This document shows positions 1 to 55,100 of a DNA stretch of 64,000 nucleotides, piece after piece. Source of the stretch: Escherichia coli (lineage in GTDB: Bacteria > Pseudomonadota > Gammaproteobacteria > Enterobacterales > Enterobacteriaceae); assembly GCF_030013205.1 (NCBI RefSeq), contig NZ_CP122648.1. One strand, 5' to 3'. Under the pieces are notes generated by a model that saw nothing but the letters and a program-made list of their open reading frames with translations, did not search any database and was not told the origin of the DNA. Positions within the stretch are counted from its first letter, which is position 1. Each line of letters starts with the position of its first letter. The translations under genes were made by a program, and so were the position numbers.

Positions 1-109
1 AGAAGATCCGTTGGATATTGAATGATAGAAAAGGCACCGCAAGGTGCCTTTTTTCTGCGTTACCTGTTGGCCTACACAGTAAAGAAATTACGCGGAAGAT
101 GAAGCGTAA

Positions 110-3156
<3,047 letters not shown>

Positions 3157-10170: not shown

Positions 10171-10194
10171 TCATATTGCTGACAAAGTGCGCTT

Positions 10195-10300
10195 TATCGA
10201 TGCCGGATGCGGCGCGAACGCCTTATCCGGCCTACAAAAGTTTGCAAATTCAATAAATTGCAGAATTCACGTAGGCCTGATAAGCGAAGCGCATCAGGCA
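10195..10300. repeat. REP element cluster (BIME-like) between pfkA and sbp
   Basis: Two REP-type palindromes (gatgccggatgcggcg...ccttatccggcctac; gtaggcctgataagcgaagcgcatcaggca). Confidence 0.55.
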
Positions 10301-11498: not shown

Positions 11499-12401
11499 TT
11501 ATGAAAGCATAGACCGTTTACCCTCCCTGGGTACGACGGAACAGGGGTCCTGATGGATAATCACATCCGATCCCGGAAAACGCCGTAAAATAGCCTGCTC
11601 TACCTGATCCGCCACCATATGTGCCTGAACCAAAGGCAGAGAGTCTTCCATTTCCAAATGAATCTGAATAAAGCGGGTCGGCCCTGACTGCCGCGTGCGA
11701 AGATCGTGAGCGCCGCTAACACCCGGCCAGGAAGTCACGATATCAATAATTTCTTGCCGTTCTTCATCAGGCAATGCGCGATCCAGTAATGACTGTACCG
11801 CCTCATATCCCATGCGTAACGCGCTATATAAAATATAGATGCCGATTCCCAATGCAAACAGAGCATCGGCGCGATGCCAGCCATACCAGGACAACCCCAG
11901 CGCCAGCAGAATTGCGCCGTTCATCATAACATCAGACTGGTAATGTAGCATATCAGCCCGCACCGCCTGGCTTTGCGTCCGGCGCACCACCCACCGCTGA
12001 AACGAGACAAGGATAATCGTACAAATTAGCGCCACAATTGTCACGATAACCCCGACGCCTGGATCTGTCATCGGTGTTGGAGATACCAGATGTTGAATAC
12101 CCGTCAAAAACAGGAATAGTGCCGAACCGGAGATAAACATACTTTGCGCCAGCGCCGCGAGGGACTCAGCTTTACCGTGACCAAACGAGTGATTATCGTC
12201 GGCAGGTTGCAGGGAATATCGCACCACCAGTAAATTCGTCAACGACGCGCCGATATCCACCAGCGAATCCACCAGCGCGGCGAGAATACTCACCGACCCG
12301 GTATACCACCATGCAAAAATTTTAATCAGCAATAGCAGTGAAGCCATCGCCGTTGCAGCAATCGCCGCCCGACTGACCAGCCGTCCATAAGATTGATTCA
12401 T
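11499..12401 (-). CDS. fieF: cation diffusion facilitator (Fe/Zn efflux) FieF/YiiP
   Basis: Translation from [21 protein letters not shown] matches FieF. Confidence 0.92.
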
Positions 12402-12479
12402 AAATACTCCCGCTATCAACTGACGCTAGTATAACGGAAGCAAATCATCTGCAATGCATTAAGCAGCAGGCAAATTGAG

Positions 12480-12526
12480 GATAAAAAAAACCCCCACATC
12501 ATGTGGGGGAAGACAGGGATGGTGTC
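12480..12526. repeat. attL: 47-bp direct repeat (copy 1), contains the hairpin cccccacat/atgtggggg
   Basis: Exact 47/47 identity with 30846-30892. Confidence 0.85.
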
Positions 12527-12574
12527 ACAAAAAAGCACCTAACCTGATGATATAAATGGATTTATATCAAGCAC

Positions 12575-12593
12575 TGTCCACATAGCGTCCACA
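12575..12593. promoter_or_regulatory. tandem TGTCCACA-type repeats (putative integrase arm-type sites) in the ogr-side arm
   Basis: tgtccacatagcgtccaca; a near-identical pair sits just after int at 30745-30763. Confidence 0.35.
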
Positions 12594-12608
12594 TCGACCA
12601 TAAATAAA

Positions 12609-12634
12609 GCCCCTCAACTGAGGGGCTATTTTTG
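12609..12634. terminator. hairpin gcccctc-aact-gaggggc with flanking T/A runs, downstream of ogr
   Basis: Perfect 7-bp stem with T-run; bidirectional in appearance. Confidence 0.45.
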
Positions 12635-12637
12635 TGA

Positions 12638-12856
12638 TCACATCCACATAATTTGCTGCCCTGACGGCAACGGGTGCGGCCTCACGGCGTGGACTTCTCC
12701 CGGCTTCACGATGTATCGCTGTACCGACTCATAAGTGATGAACGTGGCGCTGCAATTCACGTTCTGACACTGGTGATAACGCTCTTTTGTCGTGTCAGTG
12801 ATATAGCGACTTGTACGCGCATGTGCGGCATGCTGGCATAAAGGACAATGAAACAT
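12638..12856 (-). CDS. ogr: P2 Ogr-type late-gene transcription activator (zinc finger)
   Basis: Translation from MFHCPLCQHAAHARTSRYITDTTKERYHQCQNVNCSATF matches the Ogr/Delta family; Cys4 motif. Confidence 0.85.
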   Translation of the reverse strand: MFHCPLCQHAAHARTSRYITDTTKERYHQCQNVNCSATFITYESVQRYIVKPGEVHAVRPHPLPSGQQIMWM

Positions 12857-12937
12857 CGCGAGCACCTCTTCCGGTTTTGTTGATGGTGCCATTTTAGTTA
12901 ATTTACCCTTATAAAACAAACAGATAAAAACAAAACA

Positions 12938-14101
12938 TCACTCATCATCTTCTGTTTCGTTCTCCACATCAGAAAGCCTGACCTCAAGCTCTAAGGACGT
13001 CGTGAAGCCGCTATTATTCAGAAAATGTGTCACCTTAGTGATTGTCCAGTCCTGCTCGTCTATGACGCGCTTAAAGCCTGATACTTTGACCGGCGTTTCC
13101 GTGTAAATATCTGCCCGACCGGTAGCCAGACTGATGGAAAACTCCGCAACGCCCCGTTGCAGCTTATCCCACTTCGCCTGAGCGGCGCGCATGGCCTGCG
13201 CTTTCGTGGCATATACCGTGGTCAGGGCAAAAACGTTGTCAGCTTCACCGGCCATGTATTCACCTTCGCGCGCTTCCGGTACTTTTGGCGCTTTCTTCTG
13301 CGTGACTGGTTTCGCTTTCGGGTGCTCCAGTGCGCGCAGGTGTTTTTCTTTCTTTTTGCGTTTCAGTTTTACCTTCTGCTTTTGCGGCTTCGGGTCTTTG
13401 GTGTGAAGCCACTTTGCCGTTACGCCGGTATAGGCTCCACGGTCAGCAATCGCAAAATGGTGGCGGTCGCCGTCGCTGCGGGTTATGGTGACCTGCGGGA
13501 TTTTTTTACCGCTGGCCGTCACCCCCTGCCCCGCTTTGAGAAACAACAGTTTTCCCATTTTTACCGAGACCTCACCGCCGTTGCGTTCTGCAAGACGGGT
13601 CAGGAATTTCGCATCAGACTCCTGCGACTGGTCGATGTGCGGAATTTTAATTCCGGCCAGTGACGGAGCGACACTGGCTTCCAGCCTGTTACGGGAGGCT
13701 ATCGCCTCAACAATCGCACCGAGCGTGGTGTCATGCCATGAGCCTTCCCGGCGGGAATTGAGCGTCCCGCGAAAATCTGCACTCCGGGCGCGGATGGTGA
13801 CCACATCCGGTGCGCCCCGGTGTTCAACCTCATCAACGGTAAATTTCCCTTTGCATACCAGGGCAAAACCTTTCCAGCCGATATACACCGTCAGGACAGC
13901 GCCACGAACCGGCAGCCCGACCTGCCCGTCGGCATCGTTCAGTTCAATATCAAGCTGGTCAGCCTCAAAGCCCCGGTTATCCGTCAGGGTCATGCTCATC
14001 AGACGGTCGCTGATATTGCCGGTAATATCCCTGCTGTCGAGCATCAGCATGTAATCCGGCGTCAGCGTACTGCCTGCATCAAATGTCAGCGTATCCAGCA
14101 T
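12938..14101 (-). CDS. P2 gpD-like tail protein
   Basis: 387-aa translation; size and position between ogr and U as in P2. Confidence 0.82.
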   Translation of the reverse strand: MLDTLTFDAGSTLTPDYMLMLDSRDITGNISDRLMSMTLTDNRGFEADQLDIELNDADGQVGLPVRGAVLTVYIGWKGFALVCKGKFTVDEVEHRGAPDVVTIRARSADFRGTLNSRREGSWHDTTLGAIVEAIASRNRLEASVAPSLAGIKIPHIDQSQESDAKFLTRLAERNGGEVSVKMGKLLFLKAGQGVTASGKKIPQVTITRSDGDRHHFAIADRGAYTGVTAKWLHTKDPKPQKQKVKLKRKKKEKHLRALEHPKAKPVTQKKAPKVPEAREGEYMAGEADNVFALTTVYATKAQAMRAAQAKWDKLQRGVAEFSISLATGRADIYTETPVKVSGFKRVIDEQDWTITKVTHFLNNSGFTTSLELEVRLSDVENETEDDE

Positions 14102-14580
14102 TATCCCGCCCCCGTCATACCCGTGAATCTGGTCGCCATATTGCCGGCCTTACCGATGAGCGACTCCGCCTGTTTACCGATATCGCCATAAAGCGCGGCC
14201 AGTGATTCATCAACGCGGGTGAGCGACAGCGTAAAATCAATTTTTCGGGGTGTGCCATCTGCAAAGAAAATACTCCCTGTTTCACTCACCTTGCTGATGA
14301 CATACATGCCGTAAATCATTCCGGTGCCATCCAGCAACGGCCACGCCCGGCCTTCCTCTGCCATCAGTCTGAGCGTGGTCATCGTCAGCTTGCCGCCGGT
14401 CAGTTCGGGATAAAGCACACCGGCAAGCGTCATGTTTTCCTCGCCAACACCGAGAAACTGGTAGGCATCCCGTTTACCGATACGGGAATTTGACGGCCAG
14501 CGATAATCAGATTCACGCTGCATGGTCTGGTGTGGCAGCGTCTGGCGCATAAAAACAAACATACCTAACGCGAGCATCAT
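14101..14580 (-). CDS. P2 gpU-like tail protein
   Basis: 159-aa translation; position between D and T as in P2. Confidence 0.78.
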   Translation of the reverse strand: MMLALGMFVFMRQTLPHQTMQRESDYRWPSNSRIGKRDAYQFLGVGEENMTLAGVLYPELTGGKLTMTTLRLMAEEGRAWPLLDGTGMIYGMYVISKVSETGSIFFADGTPRKIDFTLSLTRVDESLAALYGDIGKQAESLIGKAGNMATRFTGMTGAG

Positions 14581-14594
14581 TTTTCGTCACCTCC

Positions 14595-24830: not shown

Positions 24831-24939
24831 TTTGCAAGCCTTTAATCTAATTCATGGAAAGGGGCATTCACTTGCCCTGTATCCAGTAAACTGACATAAC
24901 ACGATATAAGCAAGCTCCGTAATTCTTTCATGTTAATCA

Positions 24940-27258
24940 TCAATGGTCCATTGTGAATCCCGGCCACTCATCAGCGACCGGATACGTGAATTTTTTACCG
25001 TCGTAATTTACAGTCGCGCCACGCGCCAGCGCCTCAAGCTCCCATCTCTGAGGCCTGATACCGTTCTGAGCAAGGTCTACGCGGATACGGGTAATTTGCA
25101 TTCGTTCTGACCGGGTCAGTCTGGCCGATGGTGCAATTTCATGCGGTTTTAACGGGCTTCCGTTTCTTTGCTGACGGTTTGGCGTTCTCAGGTCGTATTT
25201 TAATGCGCCCCTGAGCGCCCTCACGACCTCCGGTTCATTCCATTCAATAACACCGTCATCAACCAGATTAAGCACTGCTGCGGCGTGCTCAGAAGGAGTG
25301 GGAGCCGGTAACGAAGTATCACCGCTGGTGAGCTTTCCACAGTTATTGACAGGACTCCGAGGCGCGGCGATGCCGCTTTTTAAAGTCAAAGGCTCAACGA
25401 CCGGAACTTTCGGCACAATGCGCCAGTCCGTCGTTCTGGTGATATGAATATGACGCGCGCCGAGATGCGGCGCGTAAATGCCGACCACTCTCTCGACTTC
25501 TTCCTCGTATTCGTTAACGTCATCCGACGGGCTACGGGCGACCCTGACAGTCTGACAATCGCGCGGGACATTTGCCCCGCCCTGCGCGCTGATATACAGC
25601 GCAAAATCGCCACTGTCTGCGGCGGCGCGTGCAGCCTCCACGCGTTCGTCAAATTCATCAGCAATGCTGACGCCGCGAGGCAATTTACGTAGCTCACGGT
25701 AAGCTCCCATTGTCGGCAGGCCAACCGTTTTAAATTGCGGGATGCGCCACGTTGATGCCCATGCGGTAACAGCCGCCGCAGTATCTTTCAGCGGTCTGCC
25801 GGTATCGTTATCGAGCTGACCATCCAGTGCATAGCCGTCGATATTTTTTGAAATGTATTTCGCGATATATCCCGCAGCACCGCCCCGGTTAAGGTGTTTT
25901 GCCTGAAAACGGTTTCGCGCGGCTCCTCTTTCGTCGCCATCCTCTTTGAGCGCATAGCGACGCATGATTTCGATAATCTGGTTACGCTGGCGTGGATTAC
26001 AAAAAAGCATCATATGCCAGTGCGGCGTTCCGTCGTGGTGTGGCTCGACGACTCGCAAACCGTAGACCTGTAAATCATTATCCTTGAATGCCGTGCGCAT
26101 CAGGCTCCAGATACGGCAGAGATAACGCTGCGCATCCTTTGGATTAAATGCCTCATCATTCCAGCCGTGATTAAGCTGGACGGTTTTATTTTCGCCTTTT
26201 CCGACCTGACGTGTCGGGTGATACTTTGACGGCGCGGTAAGCGTGATAAACATCCCCACATCACCCTCTGAGGCGGCGTAACGCTCAATACCGGCAATGG
26301 TGTTCATCAGCTCCATCCGGCGAATTTCAGGATTAGAAATACTGCCCATCACCTTACTGATAAGGTCGATGCGCTCGCCGGTTTCCCTGTTTTCAAGGTC
26401 ACACGATTTAAGAAATTCCAGATTTGCCTGGCGGCGCGCACGCACATCACGAATGGCGTGTTTACTGGCATAAGGAGAACGGTCTTTATTGACCTCCCCG
26501 ACAGCTATCAGTAACGCTTCATGCCAGCGCATACGCTGGCCTTTAAGCTGATGAGTCCACCACTCATCGTTAAACAGACGGGCAATTGCAGAATATGCCT
26601 GCCTCGTGGTCATCTGTCCTTTACGGTATTTTTTCCAGTAGAGAGGGGAAATATTGAAAGCACGTGCAGCACCAGCAACATGACCATAGAGGTGAGCCTG
26701 CGCCTCATCCGTAAACAGCGATTCTTTTTCGCCATGCGCATCCACCCAGGCATCGCTGAGTTCCTCATACATCATGAAAAGCTGCGATGAGATACGGGCA
26801 GCAAACTTTTTCAGCTCCTTGTCATTCATTCCCGGCAGGCGCGCATAGTGGTCACGCTCTGCCAGAAACAGTAACGACGCGTCGGTGTTCATTTCATGGC
26901 GCTGATTCACACGCTCAATGCGCGGCCATAAACGACGCTGAAAAGTGGATGTGAGGAAATAAAACCCGTGCACCGGGCTTTTATTGCGCCGGATGTAGTC
27001 ATAGCGTGAAGTAAACAGCGAGCGCAAAAAGTAAGGCAGGCGGTTAATCGTGGATAAAACACCTTGCACCTGACGCATCTCGTCACGTGTAAGGGGTCTT
27101 TCGCGCCCGACAGCCTCGCGTGGCGCGTTCCATGCATAAGCACCTGTAAACGCCTTACCGGTGCCTGCGGCAAATGCTGACGGAGGGACAAAACGTCCGG
27201 AGGCTTTAACGGCCATGTGAGCCAAAAGCCTCTGAACAACGCTTGCTGAGTTGCTCAA
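24940..27258 (-). CDS. P2 gpA-like rolling-circle replication initiator
   Basis: 772-aa ORF at the expected position downstream of orf80-83; exact start uncertain. Confidence 0.8.
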   Translation of the reverse strand: MSNSASVVQRLLAHMAVKASGRFVPPSAFAAGTGKAFTGAYAWNAPREAVGRERPLTRDEMRQVQGVLSTINRLPYFLRSLFTSRYDYIRRNKSPVHGFYFLTSTFQRRLWPRIERVNQRHEMNTDASLLFLAERDHYARLPGMNDKELKKFAARISSQLFMMYEELSDAWVDAHGEKESLFTDEAQAHLYGHVAGAARAFNISPLYWKKYRKGQMTTRQAYSAIARLFNDEWWTHQLKGQRMRWHEALLIAVGEVNKDRSPYASKHAIRDVRARRQANLEFLKSCDLENRETGERIDLISKVMGSISNPEIRRMELMNTIAGIERYAASEGDVGMFITLTAPSKYHPTRQVGKGENKTVQLNHGWNDEAFNPKDAQRYLCRIWSLMRTAFKDNDLQVYGLRVVEPHHDGTPHWHMMLFCNPRQRNQIIEIMRRYALKEDGDERGAARNRFQAKHLNRGGAAGYIAKYISKNIDGYALDGQLDNDTGRPLKDTAAAVTAWASTWRIPQFKTVGLPTMGAYRELRKLPRGVSIADEFDERVEAARAAADSGDFALYISAQGGANVPRDCQTVRVARSPSDDVNEYEEEVERVVGIYAPHLGARHIHITRTTDWRIVPKVPVVEPLTLKSGIAAPRSPVNNCGKLTSGDTSLPAPTPSEHAAAVLNLVDDGVIEWNEPEVVRALRGALKYDLRTPNRQQRNGSPLKPHEIAPSARLTRSERMQITRIRVDLAQNGIRPQRWELEALARGATVNYDGKKFTYPVADEWPGFTMDH

Positions 27259-27481
27259 CCTGCACGTTTAAATCAGCAAAAGACTTTGCGCTTCCGGTCA
27301 GAATATCGTGATGCATCAGGCCTGAAACGAGCTGGCTTAATTTCGGGTAATAACCAACCACCGCCAGCCATTCCTGACCGGCGTTTTTACCGCTTTCAGC
27401 TCTCTTTTTCTCGTGGAGAATAAACTGAAAGCTGTCACTGGTAACGACATAACGTTCGCCAATTTCAATACGAATACTCAT
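27206..27481 (-). CDS. phage early protein (P2 orf83 position)
   Basis: 91-aa ORF immediately upstream of A. Confidence 0.45.
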   Translation of the reverse strand: MSIRIEIGERYVVTSDSFQFILHEKKRAESGKNAGQEWLAVVGYYPKLSQLVSGLMHHDILTGSAKSFADLNVQVEQLSKRCSEAFGSHGR

Positions 27482-27702
27482 GCCGTTCTCCGGTAATGTT
27501 TGTTTTTTGCTTCAAAGACTGACTGACAGGAAACACAACGCGTGGCTGACGGGTAAGCCGCACGACGGGCAGCAGGTATTGGCGCGTCACACTCTTCGCA
27601 AACCAGCGCAGAAGCACCGCAATGTTTTACCCTTGCCGCGTTAATCTGGCGCTCCAGTAATTCAGCCTGTTGTTCCTGAATAAAATCTACGTTGTCCGGC
27701 AT
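27478..27702 (-). CDS. DksA/TraR-type C4 zinc-finger protein (P2 orf82 position)
   Basis: CEECDAPIPAARRAAYPSATRCVSCQ four-cysteine motif. Confidence 0.55.
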   Translation of the reverse strand: MPDNVDFIQEQQAELLERQINAARVKHCGASALVCEECDAPIPAARRAAYPSATRCVSCQSVFEAKNKHYRRTA

Positions 27703-28007
27703 TACCAGTTCCTTTTGTCGTTCAGTTTTTTAAATTCATCAGCGCAATAGCTGGCGATTTCTGTCGTTAATTTCGTCAGTTCATCCACGGAGGAAATTTG
27801 CTTGTGAAATACAGCGCGTTTAACAAGTAAATTGACCACATCAGACAGGAGGTTTAATTCACTCTGATAAATCGCGATAACAGATTCAGTTATTTCGCGT
27901 TTTTCTTTATCAAGACCAAGTTGAATAAGAGACAAATCGCCATTTTTCATAACGGCGATTTTTAAGGCATTGTTCAGTAAAACAACTGAACGAGAACAGG
28001 ACATCAA
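27702..28007 (-). CDS. phage early protein (P2 orf81 position)
   Basis: 101-aa ORF, translationally coupled to its neighbours. Confidence 0.4.
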
Positions 28008-28261
28008 AGCACCTCCCCGCGAGACAATCCGATGTTGTGAAATTTTTCCGACTCCTGACTGAGCAGCTCGACTATCTCCACGCGGGATAACTCCGCCTTT
28101 GTGATGTGGCGAATCATGGCGTCAAGATGAGAAGAAAAGCGCGTCGCTGCATCGGCCTGTGCTTCGGTTCTGGCCTGTTGCAGCAGTAATGCGTATTTAC
28201 CGCACTGATTTTCAGAAACTGTATGCATGACTTTCTCCAGGCAAAAAGAAGCCCCGCACAA
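28004..28261 (-). CDS. phage early protein (P2 orf80 position)
   Basis: 85-aa ORF in the early operon. Confidence 0.4.
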
Positions 28262-28291
28262 TTAAGTGCGTTAAAAACTCTGGTTAATTAC

Positions 28292-28798
28292 TTAATGCAG
28301 ATATTGCTCTGGTTTTACCGACGTCAGAATTGTCGGTGCATACTCAAACAGGCTGAATAATTCACGTAATGCACGGAATAAAGCATCACGCCAGTAACAT
28401 GACTCTTCATTAATTCGCCAGTATGGCTGGTTGAATTCTTTTTCAGTCAATCCGGCATGCATAAATAAAGTGCGACGCTGACTGACTGTTAAAAAACTAA
28501 TATATGCATACTCACTTGCGCCAACCTGACGGCGTTTTGAGAATGCCCCACGCAATTCATCAATTGCACAAACCAGCCGTTCACGTTCGACGTCGTTCAT
28601 TTCTTCAAAACGCATCGTTGCGTGACGCTGTTTTAACTGCGCATGAAAGCAAACCGTTAGCCGTTCGCGCTCCATCATCTGATTATAATAATCACATGTA
28701 TCCTGCCAGCGAGGAACGGCAAGATGCTTACCAATTATCCGGCGCATAGCTGCTGGCTGTTTTTCAACGAGATTGAGCGTCATCACTGTCATTTCCAT
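28292..28798 (-). CDS. P2 gpB-like replication protein (helicase-loader role)
   Basis: 168-aa ORF at the gene B position (P2 B is ~166 aa). Confidence 0.5.
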   Translation of the reverse strand: MEMTVMTLNLVEKQPAAMRRIIGKHLAVPRWQDTCDYYNQMMERERLTVCFHAQLKQRHATMRFEEMNDVERERLVCAIDELRGAFSKRRQVGASEYAYISFLTVSQRRTLFMHAGLTEKEFNQPYWRINEESCYWRDALFRALRELFSLFEYAPTILTSVKPEQYLH

Positions 28799-28986
28799 AC
28801 CCTCCGGCTTTTCAGAAAGGTCAGAGCCTTTTTTAACGGACTCTGTTTTTTGGTGCGGATAATGATTCCCTTACGCCCCTTACCGTGGGTGATGGTGAAG
28901 TCAATCGCCCTTGGGCTTTCGTTACGCAGTAACTGAGCAATACAACGCGGTTCACTCATAATCACAACCCCATCCACAAAAGCCAT
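28789..28986 (-). CDS. phage early protein (P2 orf78 position)
   Basis: 65-aa ORF between cox and B. Confidence 0.35.
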   Translation of the reverse strand: MAFVDGVVIMSEPRCIAQLLRNESPRAIDFTITHGKGRKGIIIRTKKQSPLKKALTFLKSRRVWK

Positions 28987-29234
28987 GCATCACGCTGTTC
29001 AACTGGTCGGTTATAAAACGCCTCTCGTACAGCGCGATTAAACTCTGGAATGAAAACCCACTTCTCACCGACACGAGCGTTCGGCTTACTTGGATCACGA
29101 AGCTCAATAACTGGCAATTTATTCTCTTTTACCATCTTGACTACAGCCGTTTCTGGCTTACCAAGTAACTCTGCAAACTTAACCGTATGTACCGCATCAA
29201 TCGGGTACTGAATCACATAGTCATTGACTTCCAT
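28962..29234 (-). CDS. cox: Cox-like excisionase/transcriptional regulator
   Basis: 90-aa translation with KLPVIELRDP...WVFIPEFN...AWLLWMGL; divergent from C. Confidence 0.7.
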   Translation of the reverse strand: MEVNDYVIQYPIDAVHTVKFAELLGKPETAVVKMVKENKLPVIELRDPSKPNARVGEKWVFIPEFNRAVREAFYNRPVEQRDAWLLWMGL

Positions 29235-29386
29235 TGATTAGCCCTTTTTGCTTTCGTGTTACCCTTATTAGATCCAGTCCCTTCTAGGTCGCCCCTGTCC
29301 TTTCTAGGGACTGGCTAACACACTCAAAAGGTCACCAATACACAACCTTTTGACGGGAATATAAGTCACCAATAGGTTACTGTCAA

Positions 29387-29680
29387 ATGCAGACATTCGA
29401 AAAACTGAAAGCGATTAGGAAAGCAGAAGGCTTAACACAGGCGAAATTCAGCGAAATTAGCGGGATAGCTCTAGGAACAGTCAAAAATTACGAAAGTGGG
29501 CATAAAGACCCTGGTCTCAGCATCGTTATGCGAGTCACAAATACGCCTTTATTTAAAAAATATACGCTCTGGTTAATGACTGGTGATACGTCACCACAAG
29601 CTGGTCAGATCGCGCCGGCTCTCGCACACATTGGGCAAAAACCAACAGAATCAGACCACTCCGAAAAACAGACTGGTTAA
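29387..29680 (+). CDS. P2 C-type immunity repressor (HTH)
   Basis: 97-aa translation with N-terminal HTH and the C-terminal KYTLWLMTG...GQIAPALAH segment typical of P2 C-like repressors. Confidence 0.75.
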   Translation: MQTFEKLKAIRKAEGLTQAKFSEISGIALGTVKNYESGHKDPGLSIVMRVTNTPLFKKYTLWLMTGDTSPQAGQIAPALAHIGQKPTESDHSEKQTG

Positions 29681-29749
29681 CACTCTATAAACATTATATT
29701 TTCACCATTTGTTACCAAGATGGTGAATACAGCGTCAGAGGGCTTTCTT

Positions 29750-30730
29750 ATGTCAATTAAGAAGCTCGATGATGGACGCTATGAAGTGGACATTAGACCT
29801 CGCGGTCGCGACGGAAAACGCATCCGCAGGAAATTTGAAAGAAAAGCTGAGGCTGTAGCATTTGAGCGATACACAATCGCCTACGCCAGCCAGAAAGAAT
29901 GGGCAGGTCAGCGAGCAGATCGCAGAACTTTGAGTGAGTTGCTGGACATCTGGTGGAAATATCACGGGCAAAACCACGAGCATGGAACAAAAGAGTTTAA
30001 TCATCTGCTCAAAACCATCAGCGGCATAGGTGATATACCAGTGAGCCGGATGAGCAAAAGAGCTTTGATGGATTATCGTTCCATGCGACTACGTGATGGT
30101 ATCAGTGCCGCAACGATAAACCGTGACATGTACCGATTATCCGGCATGTTCACAAAATTAATTCAATTGGATGAATTTTCCGGGCAACACCCAATTCACG
30201 GACTGCCGCCACTGGCGGAGGCCAACCCTGAAATGACGTTCCTGGAAAAAGCAGAAATCGAAAAACTGTTAAATGTTTTGGATGGTGATGACTTACTTGT
30301 CGCACTTTTATGTCTGAGCACTGGAGGAAGATGGACGGAAGTTGCCACGCTAAAACCAGCACAGATTACAAATTGCAGGGTTACCTTCCTGAAAACCAAA
30401 AACGGTAAAAAGCGAACCGTGCCGATTTCTGAGGAACTGGAGAAAAAAGTTAAAGAGGAGGCCAGCGCTAAATTATTCAAAGTTGATTATGAGAAGTTTT
30501 GCGGGATTTTACGCAGAGTGAAGCCAGATATACCACCCAATCAGGCAACCCACATCCTGCGGCATACATTCGCAAGCCATTTCATGATGAATGGGGGCAA
30601 TATAATCGCACTGCAACAGATTCTGGGACATGCGAGCATTCAGCAGACGATGGCCTATGCGCACCTTGCGCCTGACTACCTGCAAAATGCCGTCGCGCTG
30701 AATCCTCTAAAAGGCGGAGTGACGTTATAA
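29750..30730 (+). CDS. int: P2-type tyrosine integrase
   Basis: C-terminal HILRHTFASHFMMNGGNIIALQQILGHASIQQTMAYAHLAPDY (R...HxxR...Y catalytic signature); adjacent to attR. Confidence 0.88.
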   Translation: MSIKKLDDGRYEVDIRPRGRDGKRIRRKFERKAEAVAFERYTIAYASQKEWAGQRADRRTLSELLDIWWKYHGQNHEHGTKEFNHLLKTISGIGDIPVSRMSKRALMDYRSMRLRDGISAATINRDMYRLSGMFTKLIQLDEFSGQHPIHGLPPLAEANPEMTFLEKAEIEKLLNVLDGDDLLVALLCLSTGGRWTEVATLKPAQITNCRVTFLKTKNGKKRTVPISEELEKKVKEEASAKLFKVDYEKFCGILRRVKPDIPPNQATHILRHTFASHFMMNGGNIIALQQILGHASIQQTMAYAHLAPDYLQNAVALNPLKGGVTL

Positions 30731-30744
30731 ATTTCCCTTCTGAG

Positions 30745-30763
30745 TGTCCACATAGTGTCCACA
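30745..30763. promoter_or_regulatory. tandem TGTCCACA-type repeats (putative integrase arm-type sites) next to int
   Basis: tgtccacatagtgtccaca; paired with the similar element at 12575-12593. Confidence 0.35.
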
Positions 30764-30845
30764 CTCTCAGAACTTTGTAGCCCTTCCAGTCCCTTATAGG
30801 TTTTCTTAAGTTACTGTTTTCTTACGGAAACTGATGTAAGTGATT

Positions 30846-30892
30846 GATAAAAAAAACCCCCACATCATGTGGGGGAAGACAGGGATGGTGTC
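30846..30892. repeat. attR: 47-bp direct repeat (copy 2); doubles as the cpxP terminator hairpin
   Basis: Exact identity with 12480-12526; on the minus strand it reads as hairpin plus U-run just downstream of the cpxP stop. Confidence 0.85.
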
Positions 30893-30908
30893 TATGGCAA
30901 GGAAAACA
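30849..30908 (-). ncRNA. cpxQ: probable CpxQ sRNA (processed from the cpxP 3' UTR), ends at the terminator inside attR
   Basis: Position between the cpxP stop and its terminator; CpxQ is known to derive from this 3' UTR; boundaries approximate. Confidence 0.4.
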
Positions 30909-30915
30909 GGGTTTA

Positions 30916-31416
30916 CTACTGGGAACGTGAGTTGCTACTACTCAATAGCTTCAACGATGAACTTTTTTGCCATTGCGTCACGTCACGCAACTGCTCCATT
31001 CGTTGTTGATGTTTCTCATTTAAAACCGCTTGCTGCTCCGGCGTTAACAGGCGATACATTTGGTTGCGGACTTTTGCCATCTCAACCTGACGAGCAATTT
31101 GCTCATTCGCCATTTTTTCTGCCTGTGCGCGCACAGCGTTTTCATCAAAATTTTCTGCGGTGACAAGGCGATGCATTGTCTCCAGTTCGCTAACATTAAC
31201 AGGAGGCTGTTCGTGCCGGGCCTGTTGCATAAGATCTCGCATCTGCTGACGCTGATGTTCGGTTAAACTTATGCCGTCGAACATATGGCTCTGCGTACTG
31301 CGCTGCGTAAGTTCTTCACCCGGATGCCAGTTATCGCCTGAACCGACTTCAGCAGCGTGGCTTAATGAACTGACTGCCAGCGTTGAGGCCATGACGGCAG
31401 CGGTAACTATGCGCAT
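30916..31416 (-). CDS. cpxP: periplasmic stress adaptor CpxP
   Basis: Translation [21 protein letters not shown]... with [15 protein letters not shown]; divergent from cpxRA. Confidence 0.93.
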
Positions 31417-33639: not shown

Positions 33640-33735
33640 GCATTTGTAGGCAGGATAAGGCGTTTACGCCGCATCCGGCATTTGAGCAGGATGCCTGATG
33701 CGACGCTGATAGCGTCTTATCAGGCCTACACTCCG
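33640..33735. repeat. REP element(s) between cpxA and yiiM
   Basis: gcaggataaggcgtttacgccgcatccggca / gatgcctgatgcgacgctg...cttatcaggcctac palindromes. Confidence 0.5.
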
Positions 33736-52184: not shown

Positions 52185-55100
52185 ATGCAGGTCAGCAGAA
52201 GGCAGTTCTTTAAGATCTGCGCTGGCGGTATGGCAGGCACCACGGCAGCGGCACTGGGTTTTGCACCCAGCGTAGCACTCGCGGAAACCCGGCAGTATAA
52301 ACTGCTGCGCACCCGCGAAACCCGTAATACCTGCACCTATTGTTCCGTAGGCTGTGGGCTGTTGATGTACAGCCTCGGTGACGGAGCAAAAAACGCCAAA
52401 GCATCTATCTTCCATATCGAAGGCGATCCGGATCACCCGGTCAACCGCGGTGCACTTTGTCCGAAAGGCGCTGGCCTGGTGGATTTCATCCACTCCGAAA
52501 GCCGTCTGAAGTTTCCGGAATACCGTGCGCCAGGTTCTGATAAATGGCAGCAAATCAGTTGGGAAGAGGCGTTTGATCGCATCGCCAAACTGATGAAAGA
52601 AGACCGCGATGCTAACTACATTGCGCAAAACGCCGAAGGCGTGACCGTTAACCGCTGGCTCTCCACCGGGATGCTGTGTGCTTCCGCGTCGAGTAACGAA
52701 ACCGGCTATTTAACGCAAAAATTCTCCCGCGCGCTGGGTATGCTCGCGGTCGACAACCAGGCGCGTGTCTGACACGGACCAACGGTAGCAAGTCTTGCTC
52801 CAACATTTGGTCGCGGTGCGATGACCAACCACTGGGTCGACATCAAGAACGCCAACCTCGTCGTGGTGATGGGCGGTAACGCCGCTGAAGCTCACCCGGT
52901 CGGGTTCCGCTGGGCGATGGAAGCCAAAATTCACAACGGCGCGAAGCTGATTGTGATCGATCCTCGCTTTACGCGTACGGCGGCGGTGGCTGACTACTAT
53001 GCCCCTATTCGTTCCGGTACTGACATTGCTTTCCTGTCAGGCGTATTGCTGTACCTGCTGAACAATGAAAAATTCAACCGCGAATACACCGAAGCCTATA
53101 CCAACGCCAGCCTGATCGTGCGTGAGGATTACGGCTTTGAAGATGGCCTGTTCACCGGCTATGACGCGGAAAAACGCAAGTACGATAAATCCTCCTGGAC
53201 TTACGAACTGGACGAAAACGGCTTCGCCAAACGCGATACCACGCTGCAACATCCGCGCTGCGTGTGGAACTTGCTGAAACAGCACGTTTCCCGCTACACG
53301 CCAGATGTGGTTGAAAACATCTGCGGTACGCCAAAAGACGCGTTCCTGAAAGTCTGCGAATACATCGCCGAAACCAGTGCTCACGATAAAACAGCGTCGT
53401 TCCTCTACGCCCTCGGCTGGACGCAACACTCCATTGGTGCGCAAAACATTCGTACGATGGCGATGATCCAGCTGCTGCTCGGCAATATGGGGATGGCTGG
53501 CGGCGGCGTTAACGCCCTGCGCGGTCACTCCAATATTCAGGGGCTGACCGACCTGGGGCTGCTGTCGCAGAGCCTGCCAGGTTACATGACGCTGCCAAGC
53601 GAGAAGCAGACCGATCTGCAAACCTACCTTGCCGCCAACACGCCGAAACCGCTGCTGGAAGGCCAGGTTAACTACTGGGGCAATTACCCGAAATTCTTCG
53701 TCTCCATGATGAAGGCCTTCTTTGGTGATAAAGCGACGGCAGAAAACAGCTGGGGCTTTGACTGGTTGCCGAAGTGGGATAAAGGCTACGACGTCCTGCA
53801 ATACTTCGAGATGATGAAAGAGGGCAAAGTCAATGGCTATATCTGCCAGGGCTTTAACCCGGTTGCCTCATTCCCGAACAAAAACAAAGTGATCGGCTGT
53901 CTGTCGAAACTGAAGTTCCTCGTGACCATCGACCCGCTGAACACTGAAACCTCTAACTTCTGGCAGAACCACGGTGAACTGAACGAAGTTGACTCGTCGA
54001 AGATCCAGACCGAAGTGTTCCGTCTGCCATCGACCTGCTTCGCGGAAGAGAACGGTTCAATCGTCAACTCTGGTCGCTGGTTGCAGTGGCACTGGAAAGG
54101 TGCGGACGCCCCGGGGATTGCGCTGACTGACGGCGAGATCCTCTCCGGTATCTTCCTGCGCTTGCGCAAGATGTATGCCGAACAGGGTGGCGCGAACCCG
54201 GACCAGGTGCTGAACATGACCTGGAACTACGCCATTCCGCATGAGCCATCTTCAGAAGAAGTGGCGATGGAGAGTAACGGTAAGGCGCTGGCCGATATTA
54301 CCGATCCGGCAACCGGTGCGGTTATCGTCAAGAAAGGCCAACAACTTAGCTCGTTCGCCCAACTGCGCGATGACGGTACAACCTCCTGTGGCTGCTGGAT
54401 TTTCGCCGGTAGCTGGACGCCAGAGGGCAACCAGATGGCACGCCGTGATAACGCCGATCCGTCTGGCCTCGGTAACACGCTGGGCTGGGCATGGGCATGG
54501 CCGCTTAACCGCCGTATTCTGTATAACCGCGCCTCCGCAGATCCGCAGGGTAACCCGTGGGATCCGAAGCGTCAGTTGCTGAAATGGGACGGCACTAAGT
54601 GGACCGGCTGGGATATTCCGGACTACAGCGCAGCGCCTCCGGGCAGCGGTGTTGGGCCGTTTATCATGCAGCAGGAAGGCATGGGGCGTCTGTTTGCCCT
54701 CGATAAGATGGCGGAAGGTCCGTTCCCGGAACACTACGAGCCGTTTGAAACGCCGCTGGGAACTAACCCGCTGCATCCAAACGTTATCTCGAACCCGGCT
54801 GCACGTATCTTTAAAGACGACGCCGAAGCGTTGGGTAAAGCCGATAAGTTCCCGTATGTCGGAACCACCTATCGTCTGACCGAGCACTTCCACTACTGGA
54901 CCAAACACGCGCTGTTGAACGCGATTTTGCAACCAGAGCAGTTTGTGGAAATCGGTGAGTCGCTGGCGAATAAACTTGGCATTGCCCAGGGCGATACCGT
55001 GAAAGTCTCCTCCAACCGTGGCTATATCAAAGCCAAAGCGGTGGTGACCAAACGTATTCGCACGCTGAAAGCGAACGGCAAAGATATCGATACCATCGGT

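What the first reader, a model, noticed from the sequence alone, without database searches (positions are those of the whole stretch)
30846..30915. Prophage is inserted in the cpxP 3' UTR/terminator (CpxQ sRNA region); the 47-bp att duplication rebuilds the terminator
An identical 47-mer (gataaaaaaaacccccacatcatgtgggggaagacagggatggtgtc) occurs at 12480-12526 and 30846-30892, bounding the prophage. On the minus strand the cpxP-side copy reads as a hairpin plus U-run 24 nt after the cpxP stop, so it is the cpxP terminator and the 3' end of the 3'-UTR-derived sRNA CpxQ. This resembles integration into tRNA 3' ends, with the phage supplying a replacement 3' end, but here the target is an envelope-stress sRNA/terminator. 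A second, prophage-borne copy of the terminator now faces fieF.
Basis: partly seen in the sequence, partly recalled or inferred. Interest (0 to 1): 0.6.

Follow-up and report, generated by a model that had tools for sequence, protein, structure and literature searches.

The report
WΦ-type prophage inserted in CpxQ gene
A crippled P2-like (WΦ-type) prophage sits at its long-known attachment site between cpxP and fieF; that site is the gene for the envelope-stress small RNA CpxQ, and the phage carries a copy of the RNA's 3' part that rebuilds it on insertion, so this is an ordinary, well-behaved integration seen from a useful new angle.

Summary
An exact 47-mer lies at 12480-12526 and 30846-30892 and bounds an 18.3-kb P2-like prophage. 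Int is 326/327 identical to phage WΦ, and Cox and C are identical. A 14.6-kb internal deletion has removed the lysis, baseplate, fibre, sheath and tube genes.

The same 47-mer is the attP core of WΦ. It occurs once, uninterrupted, in 4593 of 5426 complete E. coli genomes, and about 15% are split exactly at it. It covers 44 of about 58 nt of CpxQ, including the cpxP terminator.

A natural SNP in the terminator loop maps strand exchange to the cpxP-proximal part of the core. In all five G-allele lysogens I fetched, the fieF-side copy keeps the host G and the cpxP-side copy carries the phage T. The terminator now ending cpxP/CpxQ is therefore phage DNA, and the copy facing fieF is the host's original.

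The site itself is already known as WΦ attB (cpxP-fieF) and is used in integration vectors. I found no paper linking it to CpxQ, and phage insertion into sRNA 3' ends is a known kind. Interest is modest.

The parts
12480..12526 (.). att junction next to fieF (host left part, phage right part). It keeps the host's original CpxQ terminator hairpin and U-tract.
   Evidence: Exact repeat. The left flank is the host fieF side and the right flank is the WΦ attP ogr arm. In G-allele hosts this copy keeps the host G at core position 20.
30846..30892 (.). att junction next to cpxP (phage left part, host right part). It rebuilds CpxQ and the cpxP terminator.
   Evidence: Exact repeat. The left flank is the WΦ attP int arm and the right flank is the host cpxP 3' UTR. 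It carries the phage T at core position 20 in all five G-allele lysogens fetched, which have three different int arms. No genome among 802 has G here together with the window-type int arm.
30849..30906 (-). CpxQ sRNA (cpxP 3' UTR). The 5' end is approximate. The 5' 14 nt (30893-30906) are host-only; the remaining 44 nt lie in the att core.
   Evidence: Same sequence as the K-12 cpxP 3' UTR except one loop base. CpxQ is described as about 60 nt and spanning almost the whole 3' UTR (PMC9438474). The region is invariant in 58 distinct empty sites across Enterobacterales. Predicted fold.
30849..30875 (-). Intrinsic terminator of cpxP/CpxQ: hairpin 30857-30875 and U8 30849-30856. This is the presumed Hfq-binding 3' module.
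   Evidence: Terminator scan and fold.
30877..30893 (.). Inverted repeat AGACA-GGGATGG-TGTCT, which forms the 5' hairpin of CpxQ (5-bp stem, 7-nt loop). Proposed Int core-binding half-sites and 7-bp overlap (30882-30888) where strands are exchanged.
   Evidence: Fold. The SNP places the crossover to the right of core position 20. attP identity ends at core position 45-47 in five phage genera. The exact overlap position is inferred.
12527..30845 (.). Defective WΦ-type P2-like prophage, 18.3 kb: ogr, D, U, truncated T fused to holin, X, L, M, N, O, P, Q, two cargo genes, A, early genes, B, cox, C, int.
   Evidence: PHROGs; RefSeq annotation of the same locus in ETEC1748; 97% identity to intact prophages except for the deletion.
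29750..30730 (+). Tyrosine integrase, WΦ type.
   Evidence: phrog_1 at E 6.6e-83; 99.7% nt identity to WΦ; 326/327 translated positions identical.
28962..29234 (-). cox (excisionase and repressor), identical to WΦ Cox.
29387..29680 (+). C immunity repressor, identical to WΦ C. It heads the C-int operon, which points at CpxQ/cpxP.
12638..12856 (-). ogr late activator. It is transcribed toward the fieF-side att copy and fieF.
12608..12627 (.). Bidirectional hairpin terminator between ogr and the att core. In attP it lies downstream of int as well; integration separates it from int.
   Evidence: predicts it on both strands. One search finds no + strand terminator between the int stop and 31123.
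12576..12593 (+). Two direct GTCCACA repeats in the ogr-side arm (candidate arm-type Int sites).
   Evidence: Their function is inferred.
30746..30763 (+). Two direct GTCCACA repeats in the int-side arm (candidate arm-type Int sites).
   Evidence: Their function is inferred.
15926..15930 (.). Junction of the 14.6-kb internal deletion (5-bp overlap). It fuses the holin N-terminus to the tape-measure C-terminus.
30916..31416 (-). cpxP.
11499..12401 (-). fieF. Its 78-nt upstream region (12402-12479) is untouched host DNA.

Best explanation
The two 47-mers are the attL/attR junctions of a WΦ-type P2-like prophage. It integrated by tyrosine-integrase site-specific recombination into its normal attB. 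That attB is the 3' three-quarters of the CpxQ sRNA gene, which is also the cpxP 3' UTR and terminator.

The phage attP carries a copy of CpxQ running from inside its 5' hairpin to the end of the terminator U-tract. Strand exchange occurs in the cpxP-proximal part of the core. The most likely place is the 7-nt loop GGGATGG, which is flanked by the 5-bp inverted repeat AGACA/TGTCT.

After integration, cpxP/CpxQ is completed by phage-supplied DNA of identical sequence. The host's original terminator ends up downstream of phage ogr, next to fieF, where it acts at most as a second insulator.

This prophage keeps int, cox, C and both att sites, so it may still excise. A lineage-specific 14.6-kb deletion means it cannot make tails or lyse.

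Shown here: the repeat, the empty site, attP identity, the direction of the crossover, and the defect. Inferred: the exact overlap position, arm-site function, unchanged CpxQ expression, and excision competence.
For: - The repeat is exact and bounded.
- WΦ attP has the same core and both inner flanks.
- All 62 phage records with this core are Peduoviridae, and 62 records match the int-plus-core query.
- The empty site has a single copy in 4593/5426 genomes. About 830 genomes are split at the first core base; 802 carry the int/cpxP junction and 783 the fieF/ogr junction.
- Core position 20 is G in the fieF-side copy and T in the cpxP-side copy in 5/5 G-allele lysogens with three different int arms.
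- In other genera the fieF-side copy keeps the host-type GGC/ACA left end, and cpxP-side copies next to an int gene mostly start with the phage-type GAT.
- Across five phage genera the identity block always begins at the end of the U-tract and ends at core position 45-47.
- The 5-7-5 hairpin is predicted.
- Int, Cox and C match WΦ.
- Literature: WΦ attB lies at MG1655 4104392 (PMC3448106); cpxP-fieF is listed as the Wphi1 site (PMC3032704); CpxQ spans the cpxP 3' UTR (PMC9438474).
Against: - No experimental data exist for this strain: no CpxQ 3' ends and no excision assay.
- The crossover is bounded only to core positions 21-45. The 37-43 overlap rests on symmetry alone.
- The CpxQ 5' end and its seed regions are taken from memory of the literature, not from a paper read here.
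- Rfam has no CpxQ model. The only hit (Hrs1) is on the opposite strand and below the gathering score in E. coli.
Confidence: 0.93

Rival explanations
1. Lysogeny is not neutral for the Cpx sRNA arm. On integration the C-int operon loses the bidirectional terminator that follows attP. It then reads convergently, without a terminator, across CpxQ and into cpxP as antisense RNA. This would lower or reshape CpxQ/CpxP output. Conversely, Cpx-induced read-through of the cpxP terminator would run antisense into int.
For: A + strand terminator lies at 12608-12627, downstream of the core in the attP arrangement. No + strand terminator lies between the int stop at 30730 and 31123, inside cpxP. C and int point toward CpxQ.
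Against: This rests on pattern scans only, and Pc strength and int mRNA stability are unknown. About 15% of E. coli carry such prophages with no reported Cpx phenotype. The pIT5 vectors use this site routinely (PMC12765450).
Confidence: 0.12
2. The phage-borne CpxQ 3' module (the C/U-rich region, the hairpin and U8) is itself expressed. It would come from the ogr 3' UTR, in the phage or at the fieF-side junction, as a 5'-truncated CpxQ mimic or Hfq decoy during infection or induction.
For: The module lies downstream of ogr on the same strand with an intact terminator. A U-rich tract precedes it in most of the divergent ogr arms seen. CpxQ rises during lambda infection and forms Hfq chimeras with lambda RNAs, so the sRNA is relevant to phage biology (bioRxiv 10.1101/2024.10.31.621285).
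Against: ogr has its own strong hairpin terminator 80 nt upstream. Conservation of the module is fully explained by the need to rebuild the host gene, as for tRNA-targeting phages. There are no expression data.
Confidence: 0.06
3. The 47-bp repeat is a chance or pre-existing duplicated terminator, or a transposition target duplication, and is unrelated to site-specific integration.
For: None beyond the bare repeat.
Against: There were 0 matches in shuffles. The empty site holds a single copy. The core is identical in free-phage attP. A tyrosine integrase and Cox lie adjacent.
Confidence: 0.01

Closest known systems
Phage WΦ (Peduovirus Wphi, NC_005056) attP/attB site-specific recombination system. 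attB lies between cpxP and fieF (yiiP), MG1655 position 4104392.
   Same: The 47-bp core is the same. Both attP arms match (640/647). Int is 326/327 identical, and Cox and C are identical. The chromosomal site is the same (PMC3448106; PMC3032704).
   Different: This copy lacks about 14.6 kb of late genes (holin to the N-terminal part of the tape measure). It carries different cargo between A and Q: a 443-aa HNH-motif protein and a 139-aa protein.
Integration of temperate phages into the 3' ends of tRNA/tmRNA genes with reconstitution (for example 186 in tRNA-Ile, HP1 in tRNA-Leu, Fels-2/SopEΦ in ssrA).
   Same: The identity block runs from a symmetric stem-loop to the 3' end of the RNA gene. 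The phage supplies the replacement 3' part. The target is ultra-conserved across genera. The proposed crossover hairpin has the 5-bp stem and 7-nt loop geometry of an anticodon arm.
   Different: The target is an mRNA 3' UTR-derived, RNase E-processed, Hfq-dependent sRNA that doubles as the terminator of a protein-coding gene. It is not a stable structural RNA.
Phage insertion into stand-alone sRNA genes: P2 at cyaR (ryeE), P2-like prophages at rybB, and ΦW104 at ryeB/sdsR.
   Same: P2-family or other integrases use the terminator-proximal part of an Hfq-dependent sRNA gene as attB (PMC3603311, PMC7380047, PMC3032704 Table 2).
   Different: CpxQ has no promoter of its own. The insertion lies inside the cpxP transcription unit. 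For ΦW104 an expression change of the target locus is documented; none is known here.

Membership tests
WΦ-type P2-like att site (attL/attR of a tyrosine-integrase prophage) | The direct repeat bounding the element equals the attP core of the free phage, with matching arms. | tested here: met
   The core is exact in WΦ (L002 2627-2673). The reconstructed attP is 640/647 identical. 62 phage records carry it.
WΦ-type P2-like att site (attL/attR of a tyrosine-integrase prophage) | A single uninterrupted copy in prophage-free chromosomes (attB). | tested here: met
   4593/5426 complete E. coli genomes, including K-12. 58 distinct empty sites in other Enterobacterales.
WΦ-type P2-like att site (attL/attR of a tyrosine-integrase prophage) | An adjacent P2-family tyrosine integrase and a Cox excisionase. 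| tested here: met
WΦ-type P2-like att site (attL/attR of a tyrosine-integrase prophage) | Arm-type Int binding repeats on both arms. | tested here: inconclusive
   Paired GTCCACA direct repeats at 12576/12587 and 30746/30757. Binding was not tested.
WΦ-type P2-like att site (attL/attR of a tyrosine-integrase prophage) | Recombination demonstrated at this site. | not testable with these tools
   Literature only: the WΦ integration site is listed in PMC3448106 and used by pIT5 vectors (PMC12765450).
CpxQ sRNA | Occupies the cpxP 3' UTR and ends at the cpxP intrinsic terminator. | tested here: met
   The region starts after the cpxP stop at 30916-30918. Terminator at 30849-30875. PMC9438474.
CpxQ sRNA | Exceptional sequence conservation across Enterobacterales, higher than that of cpxP itself. 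| tested here: met
   The 27-mer is exact in 76 species-representative loci. The whole roughly 58-nt region is invariant, while CpxP identity falls to 48-90%.
CpxQ sRNA | RNase E processing and Hfq binding. | not testable with these tools
   Would need RNA data.
CpxQ sRNA | Match to a curated RNA family model. | tested here: inconclusive
   Rfam 15 gave no CpxQ hit. Only Hrs1 (RF02628) matched, on the strand antisense to cpxP: 44.5 bits against a gathering score of 56.4 here, and above gathering in Erwiniaceae.
RNA-gene 3'-end integration with reconstitution | The phage-supplied segment replaces the host's 3' segment of the RNA gene. | tested here: met
   SNP at core position 20: host G stays on the fieF side and phage T sits on the cpxP side in 5/5 lysogens. 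No genome has the G-allele cpxP-side junction with the window-type int arm.
RNA-gene 3'-end integration with reconstitution | The crossover lies in a symmetric stem-loop of the RNA gene. | tested here: inconclusive
   The crossover is bounded to core positions 21-45. The 5-7-5 inverted repeat at 32-48 fits but is not proven.
Intact (viable) P2-like prophage | A full set of lysis, baseplate, fibre, sheath, tube and tape-measure genes. | tested here: not met
   Holin::tape-measure fusion ORF at 14595-16142. 14.6 kb is missing relative to L004.

The most novel reading that the evidence does not exclude
WΦ-type phages do more than park neutrally in CpxQ. They replace its 3' two-thirds with their own copy. 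They also point an unterminated C-int transcript at it, and/or express their own 5'-truncated CpxQ module. Lysogeny or infection would then tune the non-coding arm of the Cpx envelope-stress response, an sRNA that is itself induced by phage infection.
Probability: 0.1. Interest if true: 0.6.

Novelty: new member of a known kind. Interest (0 to 1): 0.3.

Why it matters
The integration site itself is textbook. It is WΦ attB, occupied in about 15% of complete E. coli genomes, and it is used as a landing pad in the pIT5 vectors.

What the analysis adds is that this landing pad is the CpxQ gene. Every integration there, natural or engineered, swaps the terminator and part of the sRNA body for phage-derived sequence. 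It also places phage transcription head-on against cpxP/CpxQ.

This gives CpxQ a place beside CyaR, RybB and SdsR as an sRNA target of temperate phages. It explains how one integrase lineage (66-100% identity, five Peduoviridae genera) can use hosts from Escherichia to Erwinia. It also warns that strains carrying inserts at this site should be checked before they are used in Cpx/CpxQ studies.

For genome annotation, CpxQ is missing from RefSeq annotation here, and the only Rfam model for the locus is on the wrong strand.

Tried and rejected
- **Chance or REP-like repeat.** Rejected by shuffles and by the single-copy empty sites.
- **The phage T allele in the terminator loop as a 'scar' of past lysogeny in empty sites.** Rejected. 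T is the majority allele, at about 70% of empty E. coli sites.
- **Rfam identification of CpxQ.** No CpxQ family matched. Only Hrs1 matched, in antisense.
- **Literature on the site.** I tried to read Chao and Vogel 2016 and Karlsson et al. 2006 for the exact CpxQ ends and seeds and for the published WΦ core. The supplement of Bobay et al. 2013 is not held.
- **PADLOC on the two cargo proteins.** Only weak HNH-domain hits and no defined defence system.
- **Counting G/T heterozygous lysogens.** This is not directly available from the BLAST summary. I estimate about 120 by subtraction, with 5 verified by sequence.

Full report
**1. Observation**

The 47-mer GATAAAAAAAACCCCCACATCATGTGGGGGAAGACAGGGATGGTGTC occurs exactly twice, at 12480-12526 and 30846-30892 on the + strand. 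There are no further matches with up to three mismatches and none in 100 shuffles. Identity stops at both ends of the 47-mer.

On the minus strand each copy is an 8-bp hairpin with a 3-nt loop, followed by U8. The cpxP stop codon is at 30916-30918 (minus strand). The 47-mer therefore begins 23 nt after the stop and the terminator hairpin begins 40 nt after it.

**2. What lies between the repeats**

PHROGs assign the ORFs to a P2-like phage in canonical order:
- int 29750-30730 (+), C 29387-29680 (+), cox 28962-29234 (-), B, and several small early genes.
- Replication endonuclease A 24940-27258 (-), followed by two cargo genes.
- Portal Q, terminase P, scaffold O, capsid N, small terminase M, head completion L and X.
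- An ORF at 14595-16142 whose first 82 residues match holin and whose remainder matches the C-terminal half of a tape-measure protein.
- Then U, D and ogr.

Comparison with an intact relative (strain G6/7, L004) shows a single 14.6-kb deletion. Its junction has a 5-bp overlap at 15926-15930. The deletion removes the lysis, baseplate, tail-fibre, sheath and tube genes.

RefSeq annotates the same locus in porcine ETEC strain ETEC1748 with both fragments marked as pseudogenes. This deletion junction is contiguous and identical in only six complete genomes, all porcine ETEC.

Int is 326/327 identical to phage WΦ at the translated positions. Cox and C are identical to WΦ.

**3. Is the repeat the attachment site?**

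Yes.
- Free phage WΦ carries the exact 47-mer between int and ogr. The attP reconstructed from the window's two inner flanks matches it at 640 of 647 positions.
- The attB reconstructed from the two outer flanks is found uninterrupted in 4593 of 5426 complete E. coli genomes. In the remainder the match breaks exactly at the first base of the 47-mer.
- Of those, 802 genomes carry the int/cpxP junction and 783 carry the fieF/ogr junction. That is about 15% occupancy.
- K-12 has one copy, with a single difference: G instead of T at core position 20, in the hairpin loop.
- T is the majority allele among empty sites, at roughly 3200 of 4593.

**4. Relation to CpxQ**

The literature describes CpxQ as an Hfq-dependent sRNA of about 60 nt. 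RNase E cuts it from the cpxP mRNA, it spans almost the whole 3' UTR, and it is more conserved than cpxP itself (PMC9438474; PMC4817254).

The minus strand from about 30906 to 30849 reads UUUUCCUUGCCAUAGACACCAUCCCUGUCUUCCCCCACAUGAUGUGGGGGUUUUUUUU. It folds into a 5-bp stem with a 7-nt loop, followed by the terminator hairpin. The att core covers 44 of these 58 nt. Only the 5' 14 nt and the processing region near the stop codon are host-only. The exact 5' end is taken from my memory of the Salmonella sequence and is approximate.

**5. Who supplies the terminator?**

The position-20 polymorphism gives a natural marker.
- All 55 phage records whose match to the core is 100% identical carry T.
- A cpxP-side junction query carrying G had no exact match in any genome. 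The best hits were 86/87.
- A fieF-side junction query carrying G had many exact matches: 40 were listed, and I estimate about 120 by subtraction.
- I fetched five such lysogens: G6/7, M217, ECONIH6, Sanji and O157:H16 98-3133. They have three different int-side arms. All have G in the fieF-side copy and T in the cpxP-side copy.

Strand exchange therefore lies to the right of core position 20. The U-tract, the loop and at least half of the terminator stem that now end cpxP/CpxQ are phage DNA. The hairpin next to fieF is the host's original.

Other genera show the same pattern. Empty sites there mostly begin GGC or GAC before the A-run. fieF-side junction copies keep that host-type left end. 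cpxP-side copies that lie next to an int gene mostly begin with the phage-type GAT.

**6. Where is the crossover?**

attP cores from five Peduoviridae genera (Peduovirus, Senquatrovirus, Evevirus, Novemvirus, Irrigatiovirus) always begin at the end of the U-tract and end at core position 45, 46 or 47. The only mismatches are in the A/C runs. The crossover is thus bounded to core positions 21-45.

Within this interval lies the inverted repeat AGACA (32-36), GGGATGG (37-43) and TGTCT (44-48). This repeat is the 5' hairpin of CpxQ. Two 5-bp half-sites around a 7-bp spacer is the usual layout of a tyrosine-recombinase core, and it matches the geometry of a tRNA anticodon arm. I infer that the overlap region is 37-43 (window 30882-30888 and 12516-12522). 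This has not been shown.

The long one-sided extension of identity (36 nt to the left of the proposed overlap against 2-4 nt to the right), ending precisely at the RNA's 3' end, is what selection for rebuilding the target gene would produce.

**7. Breadth**

The 27-mer covering core positions 21-47 is exact in 76 loci from species-representative genomes. In every locus where a neighbouring gene was detected on that side, it lies next to cpxP. The genera include Citrobacter, Enterobacter, Klebsiella, Raoultella, Kluyvera, Kosakonia, Salmonella, Escherichia, Pantoea, Erwinia, Mixta and Edwardsiella. It is also exact in 50 IMG/VR loci.

Integrases next to the core range from 66% to 100% identity to the window's Int. 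A whole clade of P2-like integrases therefore uses this target.

**8. Consequences at each junction**

*cpxP side.* The RNA sequence is unchanged in this strain. In G-allele hosts one loop base changes. On the + strand the C-int operon points at CpxQ. In attP it would meet the bidirectional hairpin at 12608-12627. In the prophage there is no predicted + strand terminator before 31123, inside cpxP. Antisense transcription over CpxQ/cpxP is therefore possible but untested.

*fieF side.* ogr has its own terminator, followed 80 nt later by the host CpxQ terminator. The 78-nt fieF upstream region is intact host DNA.

**9. Comparison with what is known**

- WΦ's integration site is published as MG1655 position 4104392 (PMC3448106).
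- The E. coli W genome paper lists 'cpxP-fieF: Wphi1 (P2)'. The same table lists P2-like prophages at the rybB and cyaR RNA genes (PMC3032704).
- P2-like prophages at cpxP-fieF are listed for O157:H7 (PMC7609406) and S. Pullorum (PMC6449608). An S. Infantis strain has a 31.7-kb insert at the same site (bioRxiv 10.64898/2026.03.17.712176).
- The WΦ site is used by the pIT5 integration vectors (PMC12765450).
- Phage integration into sRNA genes is established for ryeB and ryeE (PMC3603311, PMC7380047).
- Full-text searches for CpxQ with 'prophage' or with 'integrase' found no paper that connects the two.

**10. Verdict**

The feature is a new, degenerate copy of a known element at a known site. 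The genuinely additional points are the identification of that site as the CpxQ gene and the SNP-based demonstration that the phage supplies the sRNA's 3' end. Interest is modest (0.3). It would rise only if lysogeny were shown to alter CpxQ function.

Noticed in passing
window 30849-30921 (+) and 12483-12549 (+); L098 1016-1089, L065 3279-3351, L115 182-255, L090 6078-6151: Rfam family Hrs1 (RF02628, 'Hfq-regulated sRNA 1') matches the CpxQ locus on the strand antisense to cpxP. It is below the gathering score in E. coli and above it in Mixta, Pantoea and Erwinia. The model looks like the reverse complement of CpxQ. That would explain why CpxQ is not annotated in the RefSeq records seen here.
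   Followed up: partly
window 22988-24830 (-): There are two cargo genes in the variable slot between replication gene A and portal Q. One encodes a 443-aa protein with a C-terminal HNH motif (phrog_20585; weak PADLOC HNH hits). The other encodes a 139-aa protein (phrog_12893). Related prophages carry other cargo at the same slot: a restriction enzyme plus methyltransferase in G6/7, a DEAD/DEAH helicase in M217, and a GNAT acetyltransferase in O157:H16.
   Followed up: partly
L131-L134, L135-L137, L008, L010, L014, L016, L022, L023: In many relatives there is a second variable slot between the att core and ogr. ogr lies about 615 nt rather than 112 nt from the core, or cargo is inserted there. 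Examples are an O-acetyltransferase in ESSI2_ev239, a CpdA-like metallophosphoesterase in phiT5282H, and IS150 plus a hypothetical gene in M217, ECONIH6 and Sanji. In this window the slot is empty.
   Followed up: no
window 21637-22671 (+) versus L003 23843-24871: The window differs from ETEC1748 by a 1-nt indel somewhere between the two att copies (offsets 2201 and 2200). RefSeq marks the ETEC1748 portal gene as a pseudogene lacking its N-terminus, whereas the window has an intact 344-aa portal ORF.
   Followed up: no
window 10191-10278 and 33649-33726: There are Rfam hits to REP-associated 'sRNA' families: ES036/CssrF at 10237-10278 and naRNA4/CssrE at 33649-33726, with a weaker naRNA4 hit at 10191-10232. 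These are probably REP elements in intergenic regions.
   Followed up: no
window 52767-52825 (+): A strong SECIS_3 match (84 bits), which suggests a selenoprotein gene (formate dehydrogenase type) in this part of the window.
   Followed up: no
L059, L065, L072, L073, L074, L078, L090, L098, L106, L112: In several non-Escherichia species fieF lies 0.7-2.2 kb from the CpxQ terminator, with no integrase in the held sequence. Some of these sites have a phage-type GAT left end (Edwardsiella, Pluralibacter, Erwinia). They may be remnants of past integrations or other small inserts at the same site.
   Followed up: no
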